A stretch of 64,000 nucleotides of DNA from NCBI RefSeq assembly GCF_009914755.1, contig NC_060935.1. One strand, written 5' to 3'. The translations under genes and the position numbers were made by a program. Within the stretch, counting starts at the first letter, position 1; every line of letters starts with the position of its first letter. This stretch comes from the human T2T-CHM13v2.0 reference genome, Homo sapiens. Below are positions 800 through 58,543 of this stretch, piece by piece. The notes beneath the pieces were generated by a model. It worked only from the letters and a program-made list of their open reading frames with translations. It did not search any database and had not been told where the DNA came from.

Positions 800-1032
800 G
801 TGCACTATTGACAACCGGGTCACCCGGGTGGCCTGGCTAAACCGCAGCACCATCCTCTATGCTGGGAATGACAAGTGGTGCCTGGATCCTCGCGTGGTCC
901 TTCTGAGCAACACCCAAACGCAGTACAGCATCGAGATCCAGAACGTGGATGTGTATGACGAGGGCCCTTACACCTGCTCGGTGCAGACAGACAACCACCC
1001 AAAGACCTCTAGGGTCCACCTCATTGTGCAAG
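800..1032 (+). CDS. NTM: Neurotrimin internal coding exon (most of Ig-like domain 1), 233 bp, phase 2 start and phase 1 end
   Basis: Translates as (R)[77 protein letters not shown], an IgLON Ig1 domain. [15 protein letters not shown] matches NTM rather than OPCML (KWSIDPRVIILVNTP). Flanked by the acceptor tcttcccttcag (AG at 798-799) and the donor AAG|gtaggt (GT at 1033). Confidence 0.97.
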
Positions 1033-21230: not shown

Positions 21231-21741
21231 TAGCACATTCCTCCACAGTTCCTCCTTTCACGATGAGTGAGTCTGGCACATGTCATAAGATTCCACCTCT
21301 CAGGAATACACCTGAATGTGGCACTGACCATCATTCCTAGCATTATGGCTACTTTCTGGATCCTGCCTGCCTCACAGTCTCATAGCACTTCACTAGCAAG
21401 AGATGTGAGAGGACCGTTGTCATCTGTTTAGTGTTTTAGAGGCATGTTGAAGAATTCAGAGGATAAACCAATGGTCAAGCTAAGATTTCTCCCTGGACAT
21501 CTCCCACTCATGCAGTTAGACCTGACTTTCCTCCTCTCACTTCCATCATGGCATATTTTTTTATTCTACTTAAAAAAGATACACTTTATTCTATCCTATT
21601 TTACTCTGTTCTATCTTATTCATTCATTCAATAAAAATGAGCTTAGCGCTTGCTGTATGCCAGTTATATGACTGGCATGTACAATGATGAGCAAAATTGA
21701 CATTGTTCTTTATTTTTTGGAGTTTGAGTTCTTCTCTTCCT

Positions 21742-21882
21742 TTTGTTTTTAAACATTTTTTATTTGTTTTGTAGAGATGGGATCTTGTTAGGTTGCCCAG
21801 GCTGGTCTTCAACTCCTCAAGTGATTCTCCTGTCTCAGCTTCCTGAGGTGCTGGGATTACAGGTGTGAGCCACCATGCCAAG
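21742..21882 (-). mobile_element. FLAM / Alu monomer
   Basis: gtagagatgggatcttg...gttgcccaggctggtc...gctgggattacaggtgtgagccaccatgcc. TSD tcttctcttcct at 21730-21741 and 21883-21894. Confidence 0.88.
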
Positions 21883-22485
21883 TCTTCTCTTCCTCTCATC
21901 TTGACTTGCCTCCCTCTCAAAATTCTACTCTTTGTAATCTGTAGTTGTATTAAGGATTTCTAAAGAAGTTTCCTCATTAACCAGAAACAATACACTGTGC
22001 TGTCTCCATTTTGTGTTTTTTAGCAAACAAATGGGAGTAGCCAATCTGTCCATTATAAATGAGTTCATTCCCATTCAAGCAATGGCTGTCATGTATCTTG
22101 CCTGAGGCTTCTTATGTTATGAGCAACATATTGGCTTCAGTTGTCTGTACTTTTTCCTAGCTGCACAGAGATCCTTAGATGAAGGGAAGGCACAATAACT
22201 CAAAATAATGTATTGTATTATACATAGTAGTCATTCATAGTTCCAATGACAGGAAACACAATGAGCTTGTTCAAGGTGGATATGTGTAACCCTCTCACCA
22301 GGCCAGGTAGAGGTTGTTAGATGTCTAACAACTATTCTTCCCCCTAGCCAAATACGAATCTGAAACAAACTATGACCCAGATATCCAGACCAGAAAGAAA
22401 CAGATAGGATGAAGCCTGTTTTGCCCACAACGGGAAGAATCACTTCCGATGAAAAACGACTAACTGGAAATACTTCAAATTGCTG

Positions 22486-34360: not shown

Positions 34361-36472
34361 GGGGGGTAGCATAGCATAGCAGTTTAGCATGTGGACACTG
34401 GGAGCAGACTGCCTCTTCTAAAACCTCGCTGTTTGATCCTGGTATGCTTCTTAACATCTCAGTGCCTCCATTTCGTTATTAGAAAATAGTGTAACACTAA
34501 CAATAGTAATGTTATTTTTCATACATTTTCAGAAAATTATTGGAAAATCATCACCGTTTCTTAAATCTCTTTAAAGGCCTATGGGAACCCCGTTTGAAAG
34601 CTTTTGAAATATACAAAAGGGATTGATTGTCTATGGAGAGAAAGTGATTCATTCAATATGGGACTTCACATTCACTTTGTATTGTGTATTCACAGTCTAA
34701 TAAATTATTACATAATTTGTGAAAAGATGAAAGAGAAAAAGAACATCTTCAGAGAGGATGAAATAATCCAATAGAGAGATGTTGGAGATGATTAGTGAAG
34801 ACATTCAGAAGGTAGAGAGAAACTGACAGTCATGTTAAGTCTAACATGACTTTCAAAGAAGCTACTAAACAGTGATGGATTATTATTAAAGGCAGAGATT
34901 AGCCAAGAAGTAAAGCAAGCAACTTCAAAGGAACAAGCAAAATGGGAAAAAAAGGCACTTCAATCCTTAAAAGAAAAGGACAAATGATAGAAATTTTTAT
35001 ACAACTGAATGGCTTCCCATAAGCAAGTAGCTCTGGTCTTCCCTCAAGTCTAGAACTGCAAACTCACAGGTTTTCAAGTCTAGAAAAGTAAAAACAAAAA
35101 ACAAAACCAACCAACCAACCGAACAAAAAAACAAAAAACCCACAAACCCTCTCAAGCTCTCAGACTTTTCTATAACTTGTGTCCTGGGCAGCTGGGTTTA
35201 AATTCCATCAATCTAAGGACCTGAGTTTCCAAACACTATAAGTCTAATATGATTACCACCAGAGTTGGTGGTTCAGCTCACCACCTCCACTCCACCCAGC
35301 CTTAGAGAATGAAGAACTAAAACCCGGTGAGGCTCTCCCATCAGATTTTCTTTCCATTGTATTCGCTACTACCAGCCCCAGGCCAACATAGGCCCCTTCC
35401 TGGAAGAAGCTTCAGGAAAAAAAAATGGGGAGAAGATAAAAGAAGAAAGAAGTGATCAATTTAGTTCATCATCATGTATGTAAAGTCAATAAATTTAGGC
35501 TATGTATTTAACTTAAGGATCTCAGAATAAGTTATACAAGTAAGACAAGTGATTGTGCTCAGGACACAAGCAATTGCCTATTGCCAAATCTCATGGCATT
35601 TTTTCAGTACTCTTTCTGTCATAATTGATGCAGTTGCTACCACTGTCCTTACTGATGATACTTTCTTTACCAACTTTTCATGAAACTACTCCCTCTTGAC
35701 TTTCACCCAACTCTCACCACTCCATCTCAGTTTCTTTTCTTTATCCACCTTAATCCTTCTCATGAGTCATACCTGTTGGCTTTCCTCTGGGTTCCACATT
35801 TGAATCTTCCTTTTATGTTTTTCCTAGGTGATGCTACTCCATCATGGCATCAGCATGAAGATTATGATTTAGGCAGTCATCCTGCTGTGTTCTGCCTCAT
35901 TTCTTTTCTAAATTCCCAAAGGATTACAAGTTGTCTATTGAGATTCTTAGCTTTTATGTCCTGCAGACAACTTGAGCTCAGTGTATTCCAAACTGTTTTT
36001 ATTATCCTTGGTACCTAACCAGGTTTTTGGTTTCAATCAATGGGGATTGATTCAGGTTGACTTAACAGAAACAAGGAGTTGACTAAAAATATGTTGTATA
36101 ACTCATGGAATTGACAGAGGTTTGATTCAAAAATGGGAAGGGGGTCAATACATAGAAAAATTACAATGCAGGAAGTCCTGCCAGGGCATTGCATCCACTA
36201 CAGCTTAATAGTGGCACTGATGTTGGCACTATTGAAACACTGGCATTTGATGCCTCTTCTGTTCCTTCTGATACCTCTGAATGCTGGACATCCCAACAGG
36301 AGTGAATTCTAACTGTCTCTGTATCTTTGCATTTTTAACTATGTATGCAAATTCCTTGACCAGAGCATCCAGTAGACAGAGACCAGGTGACATTCCTATG
36401 CTGCACCTATTAGAGTACTATAAGGCAAGTCTGAAATCTTATCAGATTTCAAAATGGAGTCACACTATCTAG

Positions 36473-36516
<44 letters not shown>
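36473..36516. repeat. (TTA)n microsatellite
   Basis: Seen directly, with one interruption. Confidence 0.93.
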
Positions 36517-36517
<1 letters not shown>

Positions 36518-36859
36518 TTAATCTAGGAAGGGTGTTCCGATTCTGGGTAGTAGCTTAAAGGAATGGCAAAAACCCACTCCATATTTCATGAGGAAACCTT
36601 ATCTTCAACCGTTATTTCCCATGTTAACTAATGCCACCAACATATATCAGTCAAGCTAGAAACCTCCATCATTTGCTAGTTTTTCTTTCACTTCTTTTTA
36701 ACACACCTGTTTTGTTAGTAGTGTTTATTTAAGTTCCTAACCTTACAATTCTATCTACCAAATATTCCTTTCCCTTGTTTTCTATTCTGCTCTTTCCACT
36801 CTTATAGAAGCCCTAGGTCATGACTGGAGAGGACTTTCATATTTTTAAACAGTGATGTA

Positions 36860-37095
36860 CTAGCTAAGGTTGCATGCTCCAGTGTCTGATCACCTGCATT
36901 TGTATCAAACTGCAGATCATGCTCACTCATTGTGCAACCCTGGGCATATTATTTAATCTCTCTACGTGTCATGTATAAAATCAGGGGAATAATAATAATA
37001 CCTGCCACACAGGGTCTCTGCAAGAACAAATTGAGGCTGTAGGTGTAAAGCATTGTGTATGCCCACAAGCAATGTGCACACAATGATGGTAAGGT
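36860..37095 (+). mobile_element. MIR SINE nested in a fragmented + strand L2 (~35570-37720)
   Basis: tgtgcaaccctgggcatattatttaatctctct...tataaaatcaggggaataataataatacctgcc...gtaaagcatt. Confidence 0.7.
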
Positions 37096-37880
37096 GACAC
37101 TAAAACTGGAAAGTAATAATGGGAGGTGAGGTGGTGAAAACAGTAATGATGGCAGTAGTAATCTGGTAGCTATCTCTAATACGTACTCTCTTGAGGATGC
37201 AGTCTGCATTGCTGCCAGCATTATCTTTCCAAGCAAATCTGCTTCGAATCCTTGGATGGTCCTCATTTCCTATGGAATAAAATCCGAAGTCTTTAACAAA
37301 GCATATAAACTTCTCTAAAATGGGGCCCCAAGTTATCCTTTTACCATCAAATTCTACCACTGACCTTATAGTACAGGAACACAGACCACCTCATTTTCCA
37401 ACATTTTAAAGATTTTACTTACAGGTTTCACATATGCTTTCTGCTTCCTAGAACACTCTCCTTTGCTGCCTTGGAATTCACATTTTCTGTAAGGCCCAAA
37501 CACATGGTGCCTTTCTTTGCATTTTCCTCCCTGATACCCTCCCTGTGTTCCTGTCACACTCTATATTTGCATCTCACACGGTGCTGTACAGTCCTCATTG
37601 CATATATTGTCAACTTCTACACCTGCTGGCACACCCTTGAACTTAATGTTCCTATCTTACCCACTCCCATCTCTGTTACATAAGACCAGCACATAGTAGT
37701 TGCTCAGGGAATGGTTATTCTATGACTGTAATAATCAACACATTTGTAATGACTCTTCAAGGACCCAGAAACCTGGAGAGGCATGCCCACCAACTTGTCC
37801 CAGATTAGTTAACCATACCCCACTGGCCACATTTGGCAGTGACCAAACAGGCTCAGCATTTGAGGGCCTGGACTCTTGAT

Positions 37881-38596
37881 CTCTGCTTTCATCGTTTCCA
37901 CTTTGTGCTTGGCACCAGGCACCATGGAGAAACTTTAGCATGATACCGGGAAGACACAGTCGGTCATTTTTTTCTGAAGGAATTTTCATGCCACCATAAA
38001 CTCTAAATTAGCAGGCATCATAGTTATGAGACTCTGGAGCCAAATTTGCAATCACCATTAAGACAAAGAGGCAAAGGACTGTGCATGTCCCAGCAAGGTA
38101 TTCTAAAACAGAAATCGCTACTCCCTTTGACAACACAAGTGTCATCTGAAAAATCTCCATGTTCTTTGAAAGCACCAGACAAGTATATCTTCTCTAGGTC
38201 TACCTGGTCATAGAAACTTTAGACTCACCAACTCCAAAAAGTAAAGTGTGGAACTTGGTGTAAAGTGCTTCCATTCCTGTTTCTGGAACTTAATATTCAA
38301 TACAAATTTAGGCCATCACTAGATTTTTCAAATGACACCTGTGTTGTTAAAGGCAGTAGCGATTTCTGTTTTAGAATACCTTGCTGGGACATGCACAGTC
38401 CTTTGGCTCTTTGTCTTAATGGTGATTGCAAATTTGGCTCCAGAGTCTCATAACTATGATGCCTGCTAATCTAGAGTTTCTGGTGGCATGAAAAAATCCT
38501 TCAGAAAAAAGGACCGACCGTGTCTTCCCAGTATAGTGTTAAAGCTTCTCTATGGTGCCTGGTGCCAAGCACAAACTGGAAACGATGAAAGTGGAG
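37881..38596. repeat. Long inverted repeat: arms 37881-38156 and 38321-38596 (276 bp each), 164-bp spacer
   Basis: Hand alignment of the left arm to the reverse complement of the right arm gives 19 substitutions and 2 one-base indels (~92%). Perfect runs of 64 bp (38007-38070) and 51 bp (38072-38122). Confidence 0.97.
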
Positions 38597-41415
38597 CTGA
38601 AGATTTTGTATTTCAAACATTTTACTACCGTTTTTGAGAGCCTCTTTTGAAAGCAGTGAGTTTACGGGGGTGTCCGTAGATCTTCCTGTTCCATATGCTG
38701 TGTTTACCCACAGAAGAGGGAACTTTCCCTGACACTTCTGCCTCCTCACCAAGGCAGAGAAAAGAGGTCCTCTCTTTGCTCCTTTGCTCTGTTCTCCCGG
38801 GCTGAGGCTGGGGATCCAGTTGATCCAGACAGTTACTGGCTGCCTCCCAAGCAAGTTCCTCTCTCAGCTCATCCTCTTTGTGCTTCCTTGGCACAGCTGT
38901 GGGGGGCAGTGCACTGCCCCAGTTCCTACATCTCACACCCATGTGAGTGCTGCTGTTTCTTTTAAGACTTTTCTACTGACTACTGTATAAATGGATCAGA
39001 TTGGCTTAAGGTGGAGAGCTGCTTCTTTTTTCTTGAGGCAGGACACAGGAAATTCTTTCCTGCAGACCCCCACACTCCAGTCGTCCGGTCCTGGTAGTTA
39101 AAGGTGGTGAAACCCTCTCATTCACCTGAAGCCTGGCTCTTCCCTCAATGGTTCAGACCTGGAAGGAAAGACCAGAGAAAGACTAGGATTTGGGCCACAA
39201 AGCTTCAAAACTGCATTTTTTCTTTTAAATGTAAATTTAGATTATTTGTAATTACACAAGATGAATTTGATGAACAATGAGCTACACAAATTTTTTGGGA
39301 AAAATAATATTCATTTCTAGGCAGTTGACCTTCAGTCAGATCCACACAGCGTCATGAACGTACCATGTCATTGTGAACCTATGCTACGGCTTCATGGCGT
39401 CAGAGGTGCCAATTCAGAAACGGTGTGGCTGGGCCTTCTGCTTTCAGCTTACCTTTTTTTGTTGTTCTAATTTTTCTTGATTTGGATTAATACTGTACTC
39501 TGCCACAGCACGCTGGATTATTTTGCTGCGATTGTTTATAAGGAGTGGCATCCTTATGAGGGTATTTGATCTGTTATTATCCCACTTTCTCTTGAAATTG
39601 TCGTATCTAGGCTCAGTGCTATAGAAATAGAACTTTAAAAGTGAAAAACAAAACAAAAAATCTCACTGCTGGAAGACATTTCACACTGAAACATCTCTTT
39701 CTGTGTCTTGCTTTCTATCACTGTCACTCTCACTCCCCCCATATGTGTGCACATGTACATACATGTGAATGTGTATGTCTGTGTGTGTACACACAAGCGA
39801 ATATCCAAACAGACATTTATGCACACATTTTCTTGAGATATCAAGGCTTTTATGTTCCCCATAATGTGTGCCTCTTCTCTCACTTTTCTTTCTTAAGGGA
39901 GGAAATTTTCTTCCATCAGAATATCACTCTGAGATAAGCCCTGCATTTATAATGCACACAAAGACTTTTTCCAGTACTTGTCTAATGAGAAGCGATGCCC
40001 AAAATTAGAGCTTGATGCCTTCCAATTATCCTATTGCACATGATTTTGTTATACCACAAATAGTTATTTTCTTCCTTCCCCAACAGCTACATAAATGGGT
40101 CGTGGTAATCCACTCCAAAACAAATGGCTCAGTATTGCTAACTTTGCTGCATATAACGCAAATCTCTCCATTAATAAAGAAAAAGAGTGTCTGGTCATTT
40201 CATAATAATTTTAATATAATTATTTTTAAAAGATATGTTGGTTTAAAAGATATGGAGGAGGGTTGGAAGTTAGTTCTCAAGAGCATAGCTTTCATGAAAA
40301 CTGGGAGAGAGCCCAGGATGGAGTAGGAAGGGGGCTGCAGGGCTGGGTGGCATCCATTACTTTCACTTTATTTTTGGGCTCGGATTCTTTAACGTTGACC
40401 CTGCTTTGTGCTCAGGCAAATAATGGGTCAAGGCACTTCAAAGCAGACAGCTGCTCTGGACTTGATTCATCCTAATCAGAAATAACTGCCGCCCTTGCCT
40501 ATTCATCGCTTTCCCACCCTAGAAATGGGGGATTACGGGAAGAATGAAGTCAAATCTAAAGAGTTCTGCCTTAGATAGTTAAGAGGATGATTGAAATCAA
40601 TAAATCCCAGGCTTTCGGGAAGCCCACTTGATTCCAAGTTTGCTAAAGACGGAAAGAAAGAACTCCAACAGGAGCCTCTGGTGACCAGAACTCCACCACT
40701 GAGCCACTGCGGTGGCTCTCTCATCACTGGGACTTCCCAGCAGGAGCCTAAGTATTACTCGATTCCACCTCATTATGGTACTCTCCCCATGAGGAGTGTA
40801 AGTCACAATGACAGGACAACAAAATGGTTGGGAGACACAGCCACCAAGGGAAGCAGGCAGTGGATGGCCAGCCCCTATGAATACACTAGCTTGCCTCTTT
40901 CCAGCAGCCCAAATCTCCTTGGAGGGAATCCCAGCCAGTCTTGGATCTCTAACGCAGCCTTCTCTTTTTAGTTTGACTGGTATCCCAGCTCCCCGAGGAA
41001 CCTGCAGGCCACTTGAAATTCATGATGACAGCAGCAGATAAAGACTCCATCTTATCATCCACGTGGCCACTGCTTTAGACAGCCTGCTTTTTAAATTTTT
41101 ATTTTTTAATGTTTTGTTTTGTTTTGAAATGTTCGGGCTTTCAGGTCATGGCATTGCAGCCATTCCTCCTATTTTTTTTCTTTAACGATATGTAAATACT
41201 TTCATGGAGGTTGTCTTATTTGGTTCTCAGAAGGACACTATAAGACAAGGCAGTTATAATAATTTCAGTTTTATAAATGGAGCAAATGAACCCTAAGACA
41301 TCAAACCACTGGCCCTCAAATGCACCAGGGATAGGACTCTTGCAGGTTTGCCCTTCTTCCAGTTCTCATCCCATTACCGCTTCCGAGCCCCCTGTGGGGA
41401 TCCGGATGATTTCCT

Positions 41416-44344: not shown

Positions 44345-45580
44345 TGCATACAAATGAACAATCGTTTGTGGTGCTCCTACTATTCGCAAGAAACACTGTT
44401 CCATGCTGGGGGCCATAAAGGCGAAGCACACAAAAGAGATAAAAACATTATAGGTCCTGCCTTCTAGAATCTCATATTCTTGTGGGAATGATAGGTACAT
44501 ATACGAATAGTTGCTAAGACAAACTGTGATATACTCGATCAGAGTGGTTTGAACAAAGGGCAAAGAAGGAATAAATTAATTCTGGCCAGGGGAGTTCCTC
44601 TGTTCAACAAAATGATTTGAGCCCTTGTTGTGTGCTGGGAATTGTTGGTGGAAGGGACAGAGTGTGCACAATACAAGGTTTGGTTCTCATAGCTGTTACA
44701 TTCCAATGAGAAGAGAGAGACATCAGACACTAAACAAATGAGAATTTCAGAGAGTGTCATGAGCCATACTAATAACCAAAGCATGGTAATGAGATAGGCC
44801 AGGAAGCTATGTGAGGTAGCATAGCAAGGAAGGGCACTGAGAAGGGGAAATTTGAAATGAGAACTAAATGATAAACAACTAAATATGTGACACTCTGGAT
44901 AAAGAGCATTTCAGGAGAGGAAAGAAACTATAAAGGCCTGAAGGTTCTTAACCTTAGCATCTTTAAGAGATAGAAAGGGCCGGGTGTGGTGGCTCACACC
45001 TGTAATCCCAGCACTTTGGGAGGCCGAGGCAGGTGGATTGTGAGGTCAGGAGTTCAAGACCAGCCTGGCCAAGATGATGAAACCCCGTCTCTACTAAAAC
45101 CTACAAAAATTAGCTGGCCGCGGTGGCAGGCTCCTATAATCCCAGCTACTCAGGAGGCTGAGGCAGGAGAATCACTTGAACCCAGGTGGCCCAGGTTGCA
45201 TTTAGCCAAGATCATGCCACTTTACTCCAGCCTGGGTGACAGAGTGAGAATCCATCTTAAAAAAAAAAAAAAAAAAGAGACAGATAGCAGATCAGGGAAC
45301 TGAGTGAATTCTGGGCAAAATAGTCCAAGGTAAAGTCAGAGACTTCCTTCAGGGGTTAGCTCTGTAGCATCTTAGAGACACAGGGACACAGGTATGGATT
45401 GTGAATTTAATTCTAAGTTCAGTCAAATGCCATTGGAGGTTTATAAGCAGGGGATGATATTATTTGTTTTTTTTTGTCATTTTGCTTTGTTTTAATTACT
45501 CTAGTCATGATGTACAGAGTGGAATGTCCGTGCAAACAGTAAAAACAGGAAGACCACAGATGTAGTAAGAGTAGAATAGA
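44345..45580 (-). mobile_element. L2 LINE fragments, interrupted by an Alu and an L1 and resuming at ~51490-51830
   Basis: ggtcctgccttctagaatctcatattct...gccattggaggtttataagcaggggatgatat, then after the L1 ...ggcattagatttggtaagatg. Confidence 0.6.
44978..45277 (+). mobile_element. Full-length AluS (AluSg-like)
   Basis: ggccgggtgtggtggctcacacctgtaatcccagc...cagcctggccaagatg...poly-A. Confidence 0.95.
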
Positions 45581-48600: not shown

Positions 48601-51479
48601 TAAAGGAGGAGGGACTCCTCTCTAACTCATTCTATGAAGCCAGCATTATAAAGACACAATGAAACAAACAAACAACAACAACAACAACAACAAATCTTCA
48701 GGTTATTATCCATGATGAACATAGGTACAAAAATCCTCAGCAAAATACTAGCAAACCTAATCCAGCAACACATCAAAAAGTTAATTTACCATGATGAAGT
48801 AGGCTTTATTCCTGGGATGCAAGGGTGGTTCAACATGTACAAATCAACAAATGTGTTTCACTAAATAGAATTAAAAAAAACAAAATAACATGATCGTCTC
48901 AATAAATGCTGAAAAGGCTCTCAATAAAATTCAACATTCCTTCATGTTAAAAACCCCTCAACAAATTAGGCATCAAAGGAACATGCCTCAAAATGATAAG
49001 AGACATATATGACAAACCTACAGTCAACATAATACTGAACGGACAAAAGCTGGAACCATTCCCCTTGAGAAATTCAACAAGGCAATTATTACCACTCTCA
49101 CCAGACCTATGTAACATAATACTGAAAGTCCTTGCCAGAGAAGTTGGGCAAGAGAAAGAAATAAAAGGCATCCAAATAGGAAGGTAGGAAGTCAAACTAT
49201 CTCTCTTCACAGATGATGTTATTCTACACCTAGAAAACCCTGTAGGCTCTGCCAAAAGCCTCCTAGAACTGATAAACGACCACAGTAGAGTTTCAGGATA
49301 CAAAATCAATGTACACAAATCAGTAGCATTTCTTCCTTTTTTTTTTTTTTTTTTTTTTTTCTGAGACAGGGTCTCACTCTGTCACCCAGGCTGCAGTGCA
49401 GTGGTGTAATCTCAGCTCACTGCAACCTCCACCTCCCAGTTTCAAGTGATTCTTGTACCTCAACCTCTTGAGTAGCTGGGATTACAGGCCTGTGCCACCA
49501 CGCCTGGCTAGTTTTTGTTCTTTTAGTAGAGATGGGGTTTCACCATGTTGGCCAGGTTGGTCTCGAACTCCTAACCTCAAGTGATCTGTCTGCCTCGGCC
49601 TCCTAAAGTACTGGGATTACAAGTGTGAGCCACTGCACCTGACTGAAATCAATAGCATTTCTCTACACCAATAACTTCCAAGCTGAGAGGCAAATCAAAA
49701 ACACAATCTCAATTACGATAGCCACAAAAAGAGTAAGATACCTAGGAATACGTCTAACCAAGAAGGTAAAAAATCTATACAATGAGAATTACAAAACACT
49801 GCTGAAAGAAATCAGAAAAGTCAAAAACAAATCGAAAAACATTTCATGCTCATGGATAAGAAGAATCAATATTGTTAAAATGGCCATACTTCCCAAACCA
49901 ATTTACAGATTCAATGTAATTCCTATCAAACTACTAACATCATTTTTCACAAAATTAGAAAATAAAAACTGTACTAAAATCTATATAGAACCAAAAAAAA
50001 AAAAGACCCCATATAGCCAAAGCAATCCTAAGTGGAAAGAACAAAGCCAGAGGCATTATATTACTTGACTTCAAACTATACTACAAGGCTACAGTAACCA
50101 AAACAGCATGGTGATGTTACAAAAACAGACACGTAGACCAACAGAACAGGATAGAGGCCTCAGAAATAAAGTTTCATACCTACAATCATCTAACTGTTAA
50201 TAAAGTTGACAATAACAAGCAATGGGAAAAGGACTCCCTATTCAATAGATGGTGCAAGATAACTGGCTAGCCTTATGCAGAAGATTGAAACTGGCCCCTT
50301 TCTTTTACCATATACAAAATTTAACTCAAGATGGATTATATGCTTAAATGTAAGACCTAAAACTATAAAAACCCTTGAAAACAAACCAAGAAAATATCCT
50401 CCTGGACATTGGCCTTGGCAAATAATTTAGGACTGAGTCCCCAAAAGCAATAGCAACAGAGCCCCAAATTGACAAGTGAGACCTAATTAAACTTCTGCAC
50501 AGCAAAATAAACTGTCAACAGAGTAAACCGACAACCTATGGAATGGAAGAAAATATTCATCAACTATGCATCCATCAAAGGTCTAATGTCCAGAATCTAT
50601 AACGAACTTAATTCAACAAGCAAAAAACAAATAACCCCATTAAAAAATAGGCGAAGGACATGAGCAGATATTTCTCAAAACAAGACATACATGTGGCTAA
50701 GAAATATATGGGAAAAAAAAGCTCATGATCGCTAATTGTTAGAGAAATGCAAATCAAACCACAATGAGATACCATCTCACACCAGTCAGAATGCTATTAT
50801 TAAAAAGTCGAAAAGCAACAGATGTTGGCAAAATTGTAGAGAAAAGGGAACAGGTTTACTCTGTTTGTTGGAATGTAAATTAGTTCAGCCACTGTGGAAA
50901 GCAGTGTGGAGATTTTTCAAAGGACTTAGAACTACCTTTCAATGCAGCACTCTTGTTACTGGGTATATACCACAAGGAAAAGAAATTGTCCCACTAAAAA
51001 AAAAATACACTCATATGTTTATTGCGGCACTATTCACAATAGCAAAGACATGGAATCAGCCTATATGCCCATCAGTGGTGGACTGGATAGAGAAAATGTG
51101 GTACATATACACCATGGAATACTACACATCCGTAAAACAAATCAAATCATGTTCTTTCCAGTAGCATGGGTGGAGCTGCAGGCCATTATCCTAAGTGAAC
51201 ACCAAATACGGCATGTTCCCACTTATAAGTGGGAGCTACACATTGAATACACATAGACACAAAGAAGGAAACAATAGACTGTAGTGACTACTTGAGAGGG
51301 GGAGGATGGGAGAAAGATATGGGGTGAAAAACTACCTATTGGTTGCTATGGTCACTACCTGGGTGACTGGATCATTAATACACCAAATTTACCCATGTAA
51401 ACTCACAATTTACCCAAGTAACAAACCTGCACATGTACTCCCTGAAGCTGACATAAAAGCCAAGAGAAAAAAAGAAAAT
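45643..51479 (+). mobile_element. Old primate L1 (L1PA15/16 to L1PB age class), ~5.5 kb excluding the nested Alu, with disrupted ORF1 and ORF2
   Basis: ORF fragments match L1 ORF2 endonuclease (IKGSIQQENLTILNMY, IIVGDCNTPL), RT ([21 protein letters not shown]) and C-terminus (MFIAALFTIAKTWNQP). The 3'UTR ends in an A-rich tail. Candidate TSD taaaaagcat(t/c)g at 45631-45642 and 51479-51490. Confidence 0.93.
49334..49645 (-). mobile_element. AluS inserted in L1 ORF2
   Basis: Full Alu with a 17-bp TSD aaatca(g/a)tagcatttct at 49317-49333 and 49646-49662. Confidence 0.96.
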
Positions 51480-52029: not shown

Positions 52030-52649
52030 TTTTTTTATTATTTAAGTTCTAGGGTACATGTGCACAACGTGCAGGTTTGTTATATATGTATACATGTGCC
52101 ATGTTGGTGTGCTGCACCCATTAACTCGTCATTGACATTAGGTATATCTCCTAATGCTATCCCTCCCCCCTCCCCCCACCCCACAACAGGCCCTGGTGTG
52201 TGATGTTCCCCTTCCTGTGTGCAAGTGTTCTCATTGTTCAATTCCCACCTACGAGTGAGAACATGCGGTGTTTGCTTTTTTGTCCTTGTGATAGTTTGCT
52301 GAGAATGATGGTTTCCAGCTTCATCCATGTCCCTACAAAGGACATGAACTCATCATTTTTTATGGCTGCATAGTATTCCATGGTGTATATGTGCCACATT
52401 TTCTTCATCCAGTCTATCATTGTTGGACATTTGGATTGGTTCCAAGTCTTTGCTATTGTGAGTAGTGCCACAGTAAACATACGTGTGCATGTGTCTTTAT
52501 AGCAGCAAGATTTATATTCTTTTGGGTATATACCCAGTAACGGGATGGCTGGGTCAAATGATATTTCTAGTTCTAGATCCCTGAGGAATCGCCACCCTGA
52601 CTTCCACAATGGTTGAACTAGTTTACGATCCCACCAACAGTGTAAAAGT
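52030..52649 (-). mobile_element. 5'-truncated young L1PA (L1PA3/4-like) 3' end
   Basis: Close to the L1PA 3'UTR (tagggtacatgtgcacaacgtgcaggtttg, ccctcccccctccccccacccc) and the ORF2 C-terminus (HCWWDRKLVQPLWK...). TSD gtattgtt at 51981-51988 and 52648-52655. Confidence 0.95.
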
Positions 52650-56100: not shown

Positions 56101-58139
56101 GCCAGCCCCTGGCTCTGAGGAGAGGATGGATGTGAAGAAACCTTGCATGTCAGGAGATGTTGCTGAGCACTATAAATAAATCCTGGTCAGCACATCAGGG
56201 TTGGTTTTTACAGCAAACAATTATGCTGTTTACCACTAATTCATTGAACTCTGAATTATCTCAATCACAATAGCATTCATTTGCAGAGTGATTAGTAATT
56301 CACTAAGTGCTTTCAATTATACCTACATATTTTATTGGATCCCAAATCCCTGTAGGAAGAGCTTGGGTCTGAGAACAGCCACTTTCTAGCTCAGTGGCTT
56401 CGAGCACATCATTAGCAGGGTAAAACCTCAGATTCCTGGATGAAAAGGGAGAGTATATGGGAAGCCCTTATTAGGTCTTCAACAAATATTAGTTTTCTCC
56501 CATGAGGAATAATATTAAAAAGTCATATTTCCTCTGTTTTTACTTCTGTTCTCTTCCTCACGAAATTATGTAATGAATTAGATTAATTGATTCCTTTCTC
56601 ATTGTGACGTTATTTCACGTTTTGAGGATCTTTTGCTTGTATACATTTTGGCTGTCAGTTTTCAGGGACACCTTATTAGAGAATCTGCAGTGTGTCTGAC
56701 ATTCTCCATGATGGTTTTGGGTTACTTGTGTAACCTCTCCAAGCTTCAGTTTCTCGACTACACGGTGGGGAATCATGCCTTAGGAGTTACGGTGAGGATT
56801 TACAAGGGAGCAGCAAATGTGGAACACCTGGCAAAGTGCTCGGAATAGAAGGTGTTTGGTGTTTCTTTTCTTCCCACCCCATCTATCCTCCCTTCGTGAA
56901 CTGGTCCCTAAAGAGAGAGGCCTGGTGGTGAAGGGCAATAAAGCCAGTCATATAGCCCCAACCCAAAGCATGCACTGCCATACATGGAAAACACGCACAG
57001 CTGGGAAACAGATGGCCCTGTCTGGATGGCAGGTCCACATCATGATCACTGATACACCCCTTATGTTTCCATGTTAAAAAATTGATGAAGAGACACTTCT
57101 TAGTAATTTCTTAGATGTGACCCACATAATAGGGCACTTATGATTACAGGTAGTTGCTGTGAAATTCAATTTTTACCATTATGCCCCGAAGCCAAGAGGC
57201 ATGGAATAAGGAAAGAATGGTATGGACTGCACTCTCTTATGTCTCCATCAGGAATGACTAAAACTCGGTCAAGAGGCAGAGCTCATAAAGACTTCCTTCC
57301 ACATTTCAGTTGATCCTGAAAGGAACAAGTTCCAATCTTCAGAAGCACTGGTTTATGACTAATCCTGAAAAAATCACTAGGTTTTTTTCCTAGAGCTTCA
57401 GGGTTTTCTAGCCAACATGAATGGTTTTACTATGGAGGGCGAGAGAAGGAATGAGATGTAACAAATGACAAAAGGGTTCTGGTGAAGAGAATAATAATCC
57501 ACTGAGGTTATGCCATTAAGGAGCTTTCTACATTTTCAAGCTCTCATTTGGAATTCTGATTGACTGTAATCTGACCCTTCCGTTCTTGAAAATGATGGCA
57601 GCAAGCGCATTGCTGACAAAAGAATGGGGTCCTGTTGCACAGCGCACCCTGGCCTGGGGCCTGAGTCCTCATTTAAAGATGCTGTTTATCCTCAAACCTT
57701 GAGCACATCAGCAGGGCGTGTGGTGCATCCCAATGTCCAAACCAAAACAGCCCCCTACTGCACTAAAAATCTCTATTTCTCTTCGTATTGGTCTCTACAG
57801 GTACACATTTTTAGTAACACTAAGAAAGGACATTTGATTAATGCTTTATGTATAAAAAGTGATTTCTTAACATTTTAATCTGATCCACAGAACATCTATT
57901 TTGAGGAGAAAAGATAGGTGTTGATATATAATGAATACAATCAGAGACTCTAATGATTGCCATGCACTTATACAGCTAGTAACTGTGGGGTGTGGGCTTA
58001 AAACCTCGGCTTCTGATATGAAGCTTAGGGTTCTTTTTTTATCAAAAGAGACCTTAGGGATCTTCATGTATATTCCCATGATTCCATGTGCGTTTGTTAT
58101 TTTTCTAACCCATATTATTTCCATTTGAAAAAACACTGC

Positions 58140-58449
58140 GCGGTGGCACATGCCTGTAATCCCAGCACTTTGGGAGGCTGAGGCGGGCAGATCACGAGGT
58201 CAGGAGATCGAGACCATCCTGGCTAACACGGTGAAACCCTGTCTCTACTAAAAATAACACACACACAAAAATTAGCTGGGCTTGGTTTCAGGTGCCTGTA
58301 GTCCCAGCTACTCGGGAGGCTGAGGCAGGAGAATGGCATGAACCTGGGAGGTGGAGCTTGCAGTGAGCCTAGATCGCACCACTGCACTCCAGCCTGAGCA
58401 ATAGAATGAGACTCCATCTCAAAAAACAAAAAACAGCAACAACAACAAA
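58140..58449 (+). mobile_element. AluY
   Basis: gagatcgagaccatcctggctaacacggtg, agaatggcatgaacc and gagcttgcagtg diagnostics. TSD aaaaaacactgc at 58128-58139 and 58450-58461. Confidence 0.95.
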
Positions 58450-58543
58450 AAAAAACACTGCAATTTTCAGCTGTATGTCCTTGAACAAGTTCCTTGACTC
58501 CTCTGAGTATCGGTATCCTCATCTGTAAAGTGTGGGAACTAAT

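What the first reader, a model, noticed from the sequence alone, without database searches (positions are those of the whole stretch)
37881..38596. Long inverted repeat, apparently not from a transposon, predicting a ~276-bp dsRNA stem-loop in NTM pre-mRNA
Seen: two 276-bp arms in inverted orientation around a 164-bp spacer, ~92% identical. I do not recognise the arms as Alu, L1, MIR, LTR or MITE, and I see no terminal CAG-type TIR or flanking TSD. Established: most long intramolecular dsRNA in human introns comes from inverted Alus, and stems this long are substrates for ADAR and potentially Drosha/Dicer or dsRNA sensors. Inference: a locally generated palindrome (fold-back or template-switch duplication) that may act as a neuronal non-Alu hyper-editing site, a hairpin-RNA/endo-siRNA source, or a DNA hairpin/inversion hotspot. 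This is the best candidate for an undescribed element in the window.
Basis: partly seen in the sequence, partly recalled or inferred. Interest (0 to 1): 0.85.

Follow-up and report, generated by a model that had tools for sequence, protein, structure and literature searches.

The report
Old local inverted duplication in NTM intron
A 730-base stretch inside an intron of the human neurotrimin gene is an ancient back-to-front duplication of ordinary unique DNA that should fold into a long RNA hairpin, a known kind of feature with no sign so far of a special function.

Summary
The inverted repeat is real. Its arms are 37874-38156 and 38321-38603 (283 nt), around a 164-nt non-palindromic spacer. 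261 of 282 aligned positions are complementary, with two 1-nt indels. Either strand folds at about -500 kcal/mol (z -36 and -49).

In the 3.1-Gb genome each arm matches only itself and its partner. The spacer and both roughly 600-bp flanks are unique. Two control repeats gave 3,266 and 2,010 candidates, down to 77% identity. I found no target-site duplication, no Rfam family and no coding frame. It is therefore a local inverted duplication of unique intronic DNA, not a transposon.

The substitutions look neutral: 13 transitions and 8 transversions, with G:U-compatible changes 7 on the + strand and 6 on the - strand. They are unevenly placed, however. A central 116-nt tract has 1 difference (K2P 0.009), against 0.13 on both sides (permutation P about 0.001). 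This suggests an old duplication (about 55-67 Myr, rate-dependent) with a later arm-to-arm homogenisation.

A-to-I editing in NTM pre-mRNA is predicted but could not be tested here. The class is already catalogued genome-wide (long intronic inverted repeats, non-repetitive dsRNAs). Interest is low to moderate.

The parts
37874..38156 (.). Left arm of the inverted repeat (283 nt). The outer 12 nt are poorly matched.
   Evidence: Unique in the genome apart from the right arm.
38157..38320 (.). Spacer, or loop (164 nt). It is not palindromic and is unique in the genome.
   Evidence: 271 of 500 shuffles reach its self-complement score; 1 candidate, which is itself.
38321..38603 (.). Right arm of the inverted repeat (283 nt), the reverse complement of the left arm.
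   Evidence: (92% identity, E 8.5e-110).
38007..38122 (.). Near-identical central tract in the left arm: 1 difference in 116 nt (at 38071). It contains the longest uninterrupted helix, 64 bp.
   Evidence: permutation P about 0.001; K2P 0.0087 against 0.134 and 0.130 on either side; Fisher p 2.9e-4, post hoc.
38355..38470 (.). Partner of the central tract in the right arm.
   Evidence: Pairing register (left position + right position = 76477 in this block).

Best explanation
This is a local inverted duplication of unique intronic DNA, with the structure arm - 164-nt spacer - reverse-complement arm. It was probably made in one event by replication template switching or by fold-back repair of a break, tens of millions of years ago. 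The divergence of the non-homogenised parts of the arms gives about 55-67 Myr at 1.0-1.2e-9 substitutions per site per year. Since then it has decayed neutrally, except that a central 116-nt tract was later copied from one arm to the other by gene conversion or an arm-to-arm template switch.

It lies on the sense strand of an NTM intron, at least 36.8 kb from the nearest listed exon. It is therefore transcribed within the pre-mRNA, should fold into a roughly 283-bp duplex, and is expected to be deaminated at many adenosines by nuclear ADARs before the intron is degraded.

Shown here: the repeat, its uniqueness in the genome, the lack of transposon hallmarks, the neutral-looking substitution spectrum and the uneven divergence. 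Inferred: the mechanism of origin, the date, the homogenisation and the editing.
For: Structure.

Copy number: arm 1 finds only the two arms in 3.1 Gb. The 3.7-kb surroundings, the spacer and both roughly 600-bp flanks find only themselves. The same tool finds thousands of candidates for two control repeats, with scored matches down to 77% identity. No diverged copy turned up in the 64-kb window with blastn at word size 7.

Transposon hallmarks: no direct repeat of 5 nt or more sits at the two outer junctions. The spacer is not palindromic, so the structure is A-B-A' and not a decayed perfect palindrome.

Substitutions: 13 transitions and 8 transversions. G:U-compatible mismatches number 7 on the + strand and 6 on the - strand, so pairing has not been preserved on the transcribed strand. 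Two of the transitions are CpG/TpG differences (alignment).

Uneven divergence: K2P is 0.134, 0.0087 and 0.130 in the outer, central and inner segments. The permutation P is about 0.001 for a 116-nt run with at most 1 difference.

RNA substrate: 95.0% paired if G:U is counted, longest helix 64 bp, 154 A:U-paired adenosines and 6 A:C mismatches on the + strand.

Literature: template switching is documented as a source of new hairpins and of arm homogenisation in primates and yeast (PMC10710096 abstract and passages; PMC8604942 and PMC8794818 abstracts in the listing).
Against: No orthologous sequence from another species was available, so the date, the ancestral single-arm state and the homogenisation are all inferred from one genome.

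No microhomology is visible at the junctions, although after this much divergence none would be expected to survive.

The template-switch events I saw in print are much shorter than 283 nt (28 and up to 83 nt; PMC10710096 passages).

The genome search cannot see copies much below about 75% identity, and no Dfam or RepeatMasker library was on hand, so a very old low-copy repeat family is not formally excluded.

The near-perfect central tract could also reflect purifying selection rather than conversion.

Confidence: 0.65

Rival explanations
1. The hairpin, or at least its central 116-bp near-perfect duplex, is a selected functional dsRNA in neurons. It might act as an ADAR-binding or editing platform, or as another dsRNA-binding-protein site, and is kept intact by purifying selection.
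For: The central tract has 1 difference in 116 nt, against 20 in 166 elsewhere in the arms (permutation P about 0.001). The host gene is neuronal (hub annotation). Andrews and Bass report neuronally enriched conserved dsRNAs (PMC11838218 abstract).
Against: Outside the tract, 8 of 21 mismatches are transversions that break pairing on both strands. Transitions show no bias towards G:U on the transcribed strand (7 vs 6). The conserved dsRNAs in that paper are short (median 65 bp, Table 2 passage). NTM is not named in its main text (0 occurrences). A recent conversion tract explains the same pattern without any function.
Confidence: 0.1
2. It is an orphan palindromic (fold-back or MITE-like) DNA transposon with very long terminal inverted repeats.
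For: The overall shape: long inverted termini around a short unique core, 730 nt in all.
Against: No other copy exists in the genome, although the search demonstrably detects repeats at 77-86% identity over about 120 nt. No target-site duplication was found. The termini are the worst-matched part of the arms. Copies from a family active when the arms were identical would now be roughly 87% identical to this one, and so detectable.
Confidence: 0.05
3. Its main significance is at the DNA level. It forms hairpins or cruciforms and acts as a hotspot for breakage, deletion or spacer inversion.
For: The arms are long and include a 116-nt near-identical tract. The homogenised tract itself shows that the arms have interacted at least once, if the conversion reading is right.
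Against: The spacer is 164 nt and the arm-to-spacer ratio is 1.7. The passages I read give spacers under 20 nt and ratios above 16 as the strongly recombinogenic range (PMC5414712), and report that a 52-nt spacer already abolishes frequent fork stalling in eukaryotic cells (PMC7999016). The structure has apparently survived tens of millions of years.
Confidence: 0.1
4. It is a hairpin-RNA locus processed by Drosha or Dicer into endo-siRNAs or a microRNA.
For: A long near-perfect hairpin in a transcribed intron.
Against: No Rfam family reaches its threshold. The only hit inside the arms is mir-218 at 21 bits against a gathering score of 62, E 0.19. A 283-bp stem is far from the roughly 35-bp stem preferred for microRNA processing (PMC10710096 passage). 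From my own knowledge, not from any call here: somatic mammalian Dicer processes long dsRNA poorly, and an intronic hairpin stays nuclear.
Confidence: 0.05

Closest known systems
Non-repetitive intramolecular dsRNAs of the human dsRNAome (dsRNAscan; Andrews and Bass 2025, PMC11838218)
   Same: It is an inverted repeat within 10 kb, detectable by einverted-type scoring, not made of interspersed repeats, intronic and in a neuronal gene. The paper counts 497,429 non-repetitive predictions, of which 4,597 are edited (Table 1 passage).
   Different: It is much longer and more stable than the medians given there (144 bp and -185 kcal/mol for edited non-repetitive dsRNAs, against 283 bp and about -495 kcal/mol here).
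Primate-specific long inverted repeats in long introns (Wang and Leung 2009, as cited in the Lirex paper PMC5414712)
   Same: A long inverted repeat of non-repeat DNA in a long intron of a nervous-system gene. This is the same class as described in the Lirex introduction passage.
   Different: The original FEBS J paper is not held, so I do not know whether this NTM locus is listed there. Primate specificity is only inferred here.
Inverted Alu pairs (IRAlu), the main ADAR substrates
   Same: Similar arm length (about 300 nt) and intronic position, and the same expected fate: promiscuous A-to-I editing of a long imperfect duplex.
   Different: The arms are single-copy DNA, not Alu (against the repeat control). 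They are 92.6% complementary with a short 164-nt loop, so the fold is unambiguous and intramolecular.
Template-switch mutations that create hairpins (Loytynoja and Goldman model; PMC10710096, PMC8794818)
   Same: A one-step origin of a perfect inverted copy next to its source. Later events can re-homogenise the arms.
   Different: The examples I read are 28 to 83 nt, with stems of 30-55 nt. This copy is 283 nt, closer in scale to small fold-back or inverted duplications.
Long, highly paired putative MDA5 substrates (more than 300 bp and more than 96% paired; PMC11838218 section 10, PMC7006430)
   Same: The same kind of structure, close to both thresholds.
   Different: It fails both thresholds (283 bp; 95.0% paired counting G:U). 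It is also deep in an intron, so it is not expected in the cytoplasm.

Membership tests
Palindromic MITE / DNA transposon | Multiple dispersed copies in the genome | tested here: not met
   only the two arms match in 3.1 Gb (2 candidates, 2 scored). Controls gave 3,266 and 2,010 candidates.
Palindromic MITE / DNA transposon | Target-site duplication flanking the termini | tested here: not met
   the only shared words of 5-6 nt between the two flanks lie away from the junctions.
Palindromic MITE / DNA transposon | Match to a curated consensus (Dfam or Repbase) | not testable with these tools
   No eukaryotic repeat library is on hand.
Inverted Alu pair | Arms are Alu elements | tested here: not met
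   The arms are single-copy. The stretch is not masked in NCBI's file (hub annotation).
Non-repetitive long intramolecular dsRNA / long inverted repeat | Inverted repeat within 10 kb, scoring far above a 30-bp helix, with arms free of interspersed repeats | tested here: met
   Freedom from repeats was judged by copy number only, not by RepeatMasker.
Non-repetitive long intramolecular dsRNA / long inverted repeat | A-to-I editing sites on both arms (the 'edited' subclass) | not testable with these tools
Putative MDA5 substrate class | More than 300 bp and more than 96% of nucleotides paired | tested here: not met
   283 bp; 268 of 282 positions (95.0%) paired counting G:U on the + strand.
MicroRNA / hairpin-RNA locus | Match to a known RNA family | tested here: not met
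   nothing reaches a gathering score. The best hit in the arms is 21 bits against 62.
MicroRNA / hairpin-RNA locus | Small RNA reads of 21-23 nt from the stem | not testable with these tools
   No small-RNA data.
Template-switch / fold-back inverted duplication | An outgroup carries one arm plus the spacer only | not testable with these tools
   No other eukaryotic genome is held; the tool states that the assembly 'has no relatives here'.
Template-switch / fold-back inverted duplication | Microhomology at the switch junctions | tested here: inconclusive
   One search prints the four junctions and none is evident. With about 13% arm divergence, none would be expected to remain.
Strongly recombinogenic palindrome | Spacer under about 20 nt, or arm-to-spacer ratio above 16 | tested here: not met
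   The spacer is 164 nt and the ratio is 1.7. Criteria are from the PMC5414712 passage.

The most novel reading that the evidence does not exclude
The central 116-bp near-perfect duplex (38007-38122 paired with 38355-38470) is kept identical in both arms by selection, or by recurrent homogenisation favoured by selection, because the NTM intronic hairpin is a functional neuronal dsRNA. It would be a non-Alu, single-copy platform for ADAR or another dsRNA-binding protein that arose de novo from an inverted duplication.
Probability: 0.08. Interest if true: 0.6.

Novelty: new member of a known kind. Interest (0 to 1): 0.22.

Why it matters
The element is a clean, single-copy, unambiguously intramolecular dsRNA of about 283 bp in a highly expressed neuronal gene. 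That makes it a convenient natural test substrate for nuclear ADAR activity, free of the mapping ambiguity that Alu pairs bring. The roughly 15-fold contrast in arm divergence (0.009 against 0.13) would also make it a small, datable example of arm-to-arm homogenisation in a short human palindrome. It does not open a new category: such intronic inverted repeats and non-repetitive dsRNAs have been catalogued genome-wide, and nothing here points to a dedicated function.

Tried and rejected
- Rfam scan of 36500-40000 at E up to 10: 9 sub-threshold hits and none credible. Those at 39732-39827 fall on an imperfect TG/CA-rich simple repeat.
- Stop-to-stop ORFs in 37700-38800: 20 frames of 40-120 aa, mirrored between the arms.
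- Decayed perfect palindrome: rejected, because the spacer has no self-complementarity beyond chance (271 of 500 shuffles reach its score; half against half, 356 of 500).
- Extension of homology beyond the arms, or extra diverged copies in the window: none at blastn word size 7.
- Target-site duplication and junction microhomology: none.
- Literature on this particular locus. The search 'NTM / inverted repeat / hyper-editing' returned only mycobacterial and unrelated editing papers. The search 'neurotrimin / A-to-I / RNA editing' returned 0 papers. NTM occurs 0 times in the main texts of PMC11838218 and PMC7006430. So I found no printed description of this locus in those searches. Supplementary tables, where it would most likely appear, could not be read, and Wang and Leung 2009 (FEBS J) is not held.
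- The search of earlier findings was not open.

Full report
**Observation.** The repeat finder gives arms at 37874-38156 and 38321-38603, 283 nt each, separated by 164 nt. A gapped alignment of the left arm with the reverse complement of the right arm gives three blocks with two one-base indels. 261 of 282 aligned positions are complementary (92.6%). The outermost 12 nt carry 4 of the mismatches, so the outer boundary is uncertain by about 12 nt. As RNA, 37860-38620 folds into one long hairpin at -495 kcal/mol on the + strand (20 shuffles: -195 +/- 8, z -36) and -507 kcal/mol on the - strand (z -49). In the whole 64-kb window only four inverted pairs of at least 60 nt lie within 5 kb of each other. 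The other three are 70-81% complementary, and at least two of them overlap stretches that NCBI masks as repeats (hub annotation).

**Transposon or local duplication.** The window's own assembly (3.1 Gb, 24 contigs) can be searched.
- Arm 1 finds exactly two places, itself and arm 2 at 92% identity. The first look raised only 2 candidates and both were scored.
- The 3.7 kb around the repeat (36400-40100), the spacer alone and the two roughly 600-nt flanks each find only themselves.
- As positive controls I searched with two stretches that NCBI masks. 58092-58464 raised 3,266 candidates; 40 were scored, at 86-90% identity over about 300 nt. 21700-21900 raised 2,010 candidates; 40 were scored, and their full-length matches were 77-86% identical over about 120 nt.

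The search therefore sees dispersed repeats down to at least about 77% identity, and the arms have none. Within the window, blastn at word size 7 finds no further copy and no extension of homology beyond the arms. No direct repeat of 5 nt or more sits at the two outer junctions. The spacer has no self-complementarity above chance (271 of 500 shuffles reach its local score), so the structure is arm-spacer-arm' and not a decayed perfect palindrome. No Rfam family approaches its threshold; the best hit in the arms is 21 bits against a gathering score of 62. Stop-to-stop frames are short and simply mirrored between the arms. One gap remains: no Dfam or RepeatMasker library was available, so a very old family whose copies are below about 75% identity cannot be formally excluded. 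Such a family would not, however, explain arms that are 87-99% alike.

**How it has evolved.** The 21 mismatches are 13 transitions and 8 transversions. Of the transitions, 7 leave a G:U pair on the + strand (the NTM sense strand) and 6 leave a G:U pair on the - strand. Pairing has not been protected on the transcribed strand, and the 8 transversions break it on both strands. Two of the transitions are CpG against TpG/CpA differences. Three CpGs are shared by both arms (read from the alignment; 4 CpGs per arm).

The differences are not evenly spread. Counting indels, 18 of 23 lie in the outer half (binomial p 0.011). The longest run with at most one difference is 116 nt (38007-38122), and only about 0.1% of 100,000 random placements reach that length. 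The Kimura distances are:

| Segment | Differences | K2P |
|---|---|---|
| 37874-38006 (outer) | 16 of 132 | 0.134 |
| 38007-38122 (central) | 1 of 116 | 0.0087 |
| 38123-38156 (inner) | 4 of 34 | 0.130 |

A post hoc Fisher test of 1/116 against 20/166 gives p 2.9e-4. The divergence is the same on both sides of the near-identical core. That is what a single conversion tract, or an arm-to-arm template switch, laid over an older repeat would produce. Homogenisation of inverted-repeat arms by template switching is described in the literature (PMC8604942 and PMC8794818; abstracts seen in the listing only).

For dating I used long-term primate rates of 1.0-1.2e-9 per site per year, which I recall rather than take from any call. 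The flanking segments then date the duplication to about 55-67 Myr and the central tract to about 4 Myr. At 0.5e-9 both figures double. The whole-arm average (K 0.079) would give 33-39 Myr. These dates rest on one genome and on few sites, so they are rough.

**Mechanism of origin (inferred).** The A-B-A' layout, with a unique non-palindromic spacer and sharp inner boundaries (one search prints them), fits two routes. In one, a nascent strand copies A and B, switches to the complementary strand and copies A backwards. In the other, a broken end folds back and primes on itself. Template switching is documented as a frequent source of new hairpins in primate introns, but the events I read about are 28 to 83 nt (PMC10710096; abstract and passages). 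This one would be several times longer. No junction microhomology is visible, which is uninformative at this age.

**What it does (inferred).** According to the hub annotation the repeat lies in an intron of NTM on the sense strand. It is 36.8 kb downstream of the only exon listed in the window (800-1032), and more than 25 kb from the window's end. Only 1 of 45 transcripts was listed. It is too far from splice sites for the 730-nt loop-out to matter for splicing, and both arms are in the same intron, so it cannot promote back-splicing.

In the pre-mRNA it offers a 283-bp duplex that is 95.0% paired if G:U is counted. Its longest perfect helix is 64 bp. On the + strand it has 154 A:U-paired adenosines, 76 of them with a 5' U or A, and six A:C mismatches. 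From established knowledge of ADAR substrate preference, this should be edited promiscuously in the nucleus.

It narrowly misses the 'more than 300 bp and more than 96% paired' class regarded as potential MDA5 ligands (PMC11838218 section 10; PMC7006430 passages). Being deep in an intron, it should not reach cytoplasmic sensors. Barak et al. note that long dsRNAs are tolerated in pre-mRNA far better than in mRNA (PMC7006430 abstract and passages). A microRNA or endo-siRNA role is unlikely: there is no family match, and the stem is far longer than the roughly 35 bp preferred for microRNA processing (PMC10710096 passage).

At the DNA level, the 164-nt spacer and an arm-to-spacer ratio of 1.7 put it well outside the strongly recombinogenic range quoted in the passages I read. 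That range is spacers under 20 nt and ratios above 16 (PMC5414712). Frequent fork stalling in eukaryotic cells is already lost at a 52-nt spacer (PMC7999016). None of the RNA-level predictions could be tested here.

**Comparison with what is known.** The class is not new. The Lirex paper states that primate-specific long inverted repeats had been found in long introns of genes involved in nervous-system development. It also states that over 100 recombinogenic long inverted repeats exist in the human genome, citing Wang and Leung 2009 (PMC5414712 passages). That original paper is not held.

Andrews and Bass scanned the whole human genome with an einverted-based pipeline using 10-kb windows. They report 5,134,754 predicted dsRNAs, of which 497,429 are non-repetitive and 4,597 of those are edited, and they note enrichment of non-repetitive dsRNAs within 3 Mb of chromosome tips (PMC11838218; abstract, sections 10 and 20, Table 1 passage). 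A repeat this strong would necessarily be picked up by such a scan. By my recollection of the length of chromosome 11 it also lies about 2.9 Mb from the q end, which fits that enrichment. It is much longer and more stable than their medians for edited non-repetitive dsRNAs (144 bp, -185 kcal/mol).

I could not check whether this locus is listed or edited. NTM is not named in the main text of either dsRNA paper. My two locus-directed literature searches found nothing.

**Verdict.** The element is best described as an old, neutrally decaying local inverted duplication with a later homogenised core. It passively provides a long intronic ADAR substrate. It is a new, unusually long and clean member of a known and already catalogued kind. 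The one feature worth a follow-up is the roughly 15-fold drop in arm divergence over the central 116 nt. A primate alignment would quickly settle whether that reflects conversion (my expectation) or selection on a functional neuronal dsRNA (about 8%).

Noticed in passing
window 38903-38920: A perfect 18-nt G+C-rich palindrome with no spacer, 300 nt downstream of the right arm (blastn self-hit at 100%, E 1.6e-4; sequence printed). It is unrelated in sequence to the arms.
   Followed up: no
window 39730-39830: An imperfect TG/CA-rich simple repeat that attracts sub-threshold Rfam hits to mir-297, mir-466, mir-3149 and mir-1277 on both strands (18-27 bits against gathering scores of 81-100; sequence). 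These are probably composition artefacts.
   Followed up: partly
window 45103-45276 / 49345-49518; 50997-51137 / 52358-52498; 50927-51000 / 52496-52569: Three further inverted pairs (70-81% complementary, spacers of 1.2-4.1 kb), mostly inside stretches masked as repeats. They are probably inverted copies of interspersed elements.
   Followed up: no
window 36400-40100: The whole 3.7 kb around the repeat raised only one first-look candidate in the genome, which was itself, and the separate flank searches agree. This points to a repeat-poor patch of intron. The caveat is that old repeats below about 75% identity would not be seen.
   Followed up: partly
window 21756-21890: A core of about 130 nt with at least 2,010 first-look candidates genome-wide. 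The 40 scored were 77-86% identical in their full-length matches. This fits an old interspersed repeat. The family was not identified, and the stretch was used only as a sensitivity control.
   Followed up: no
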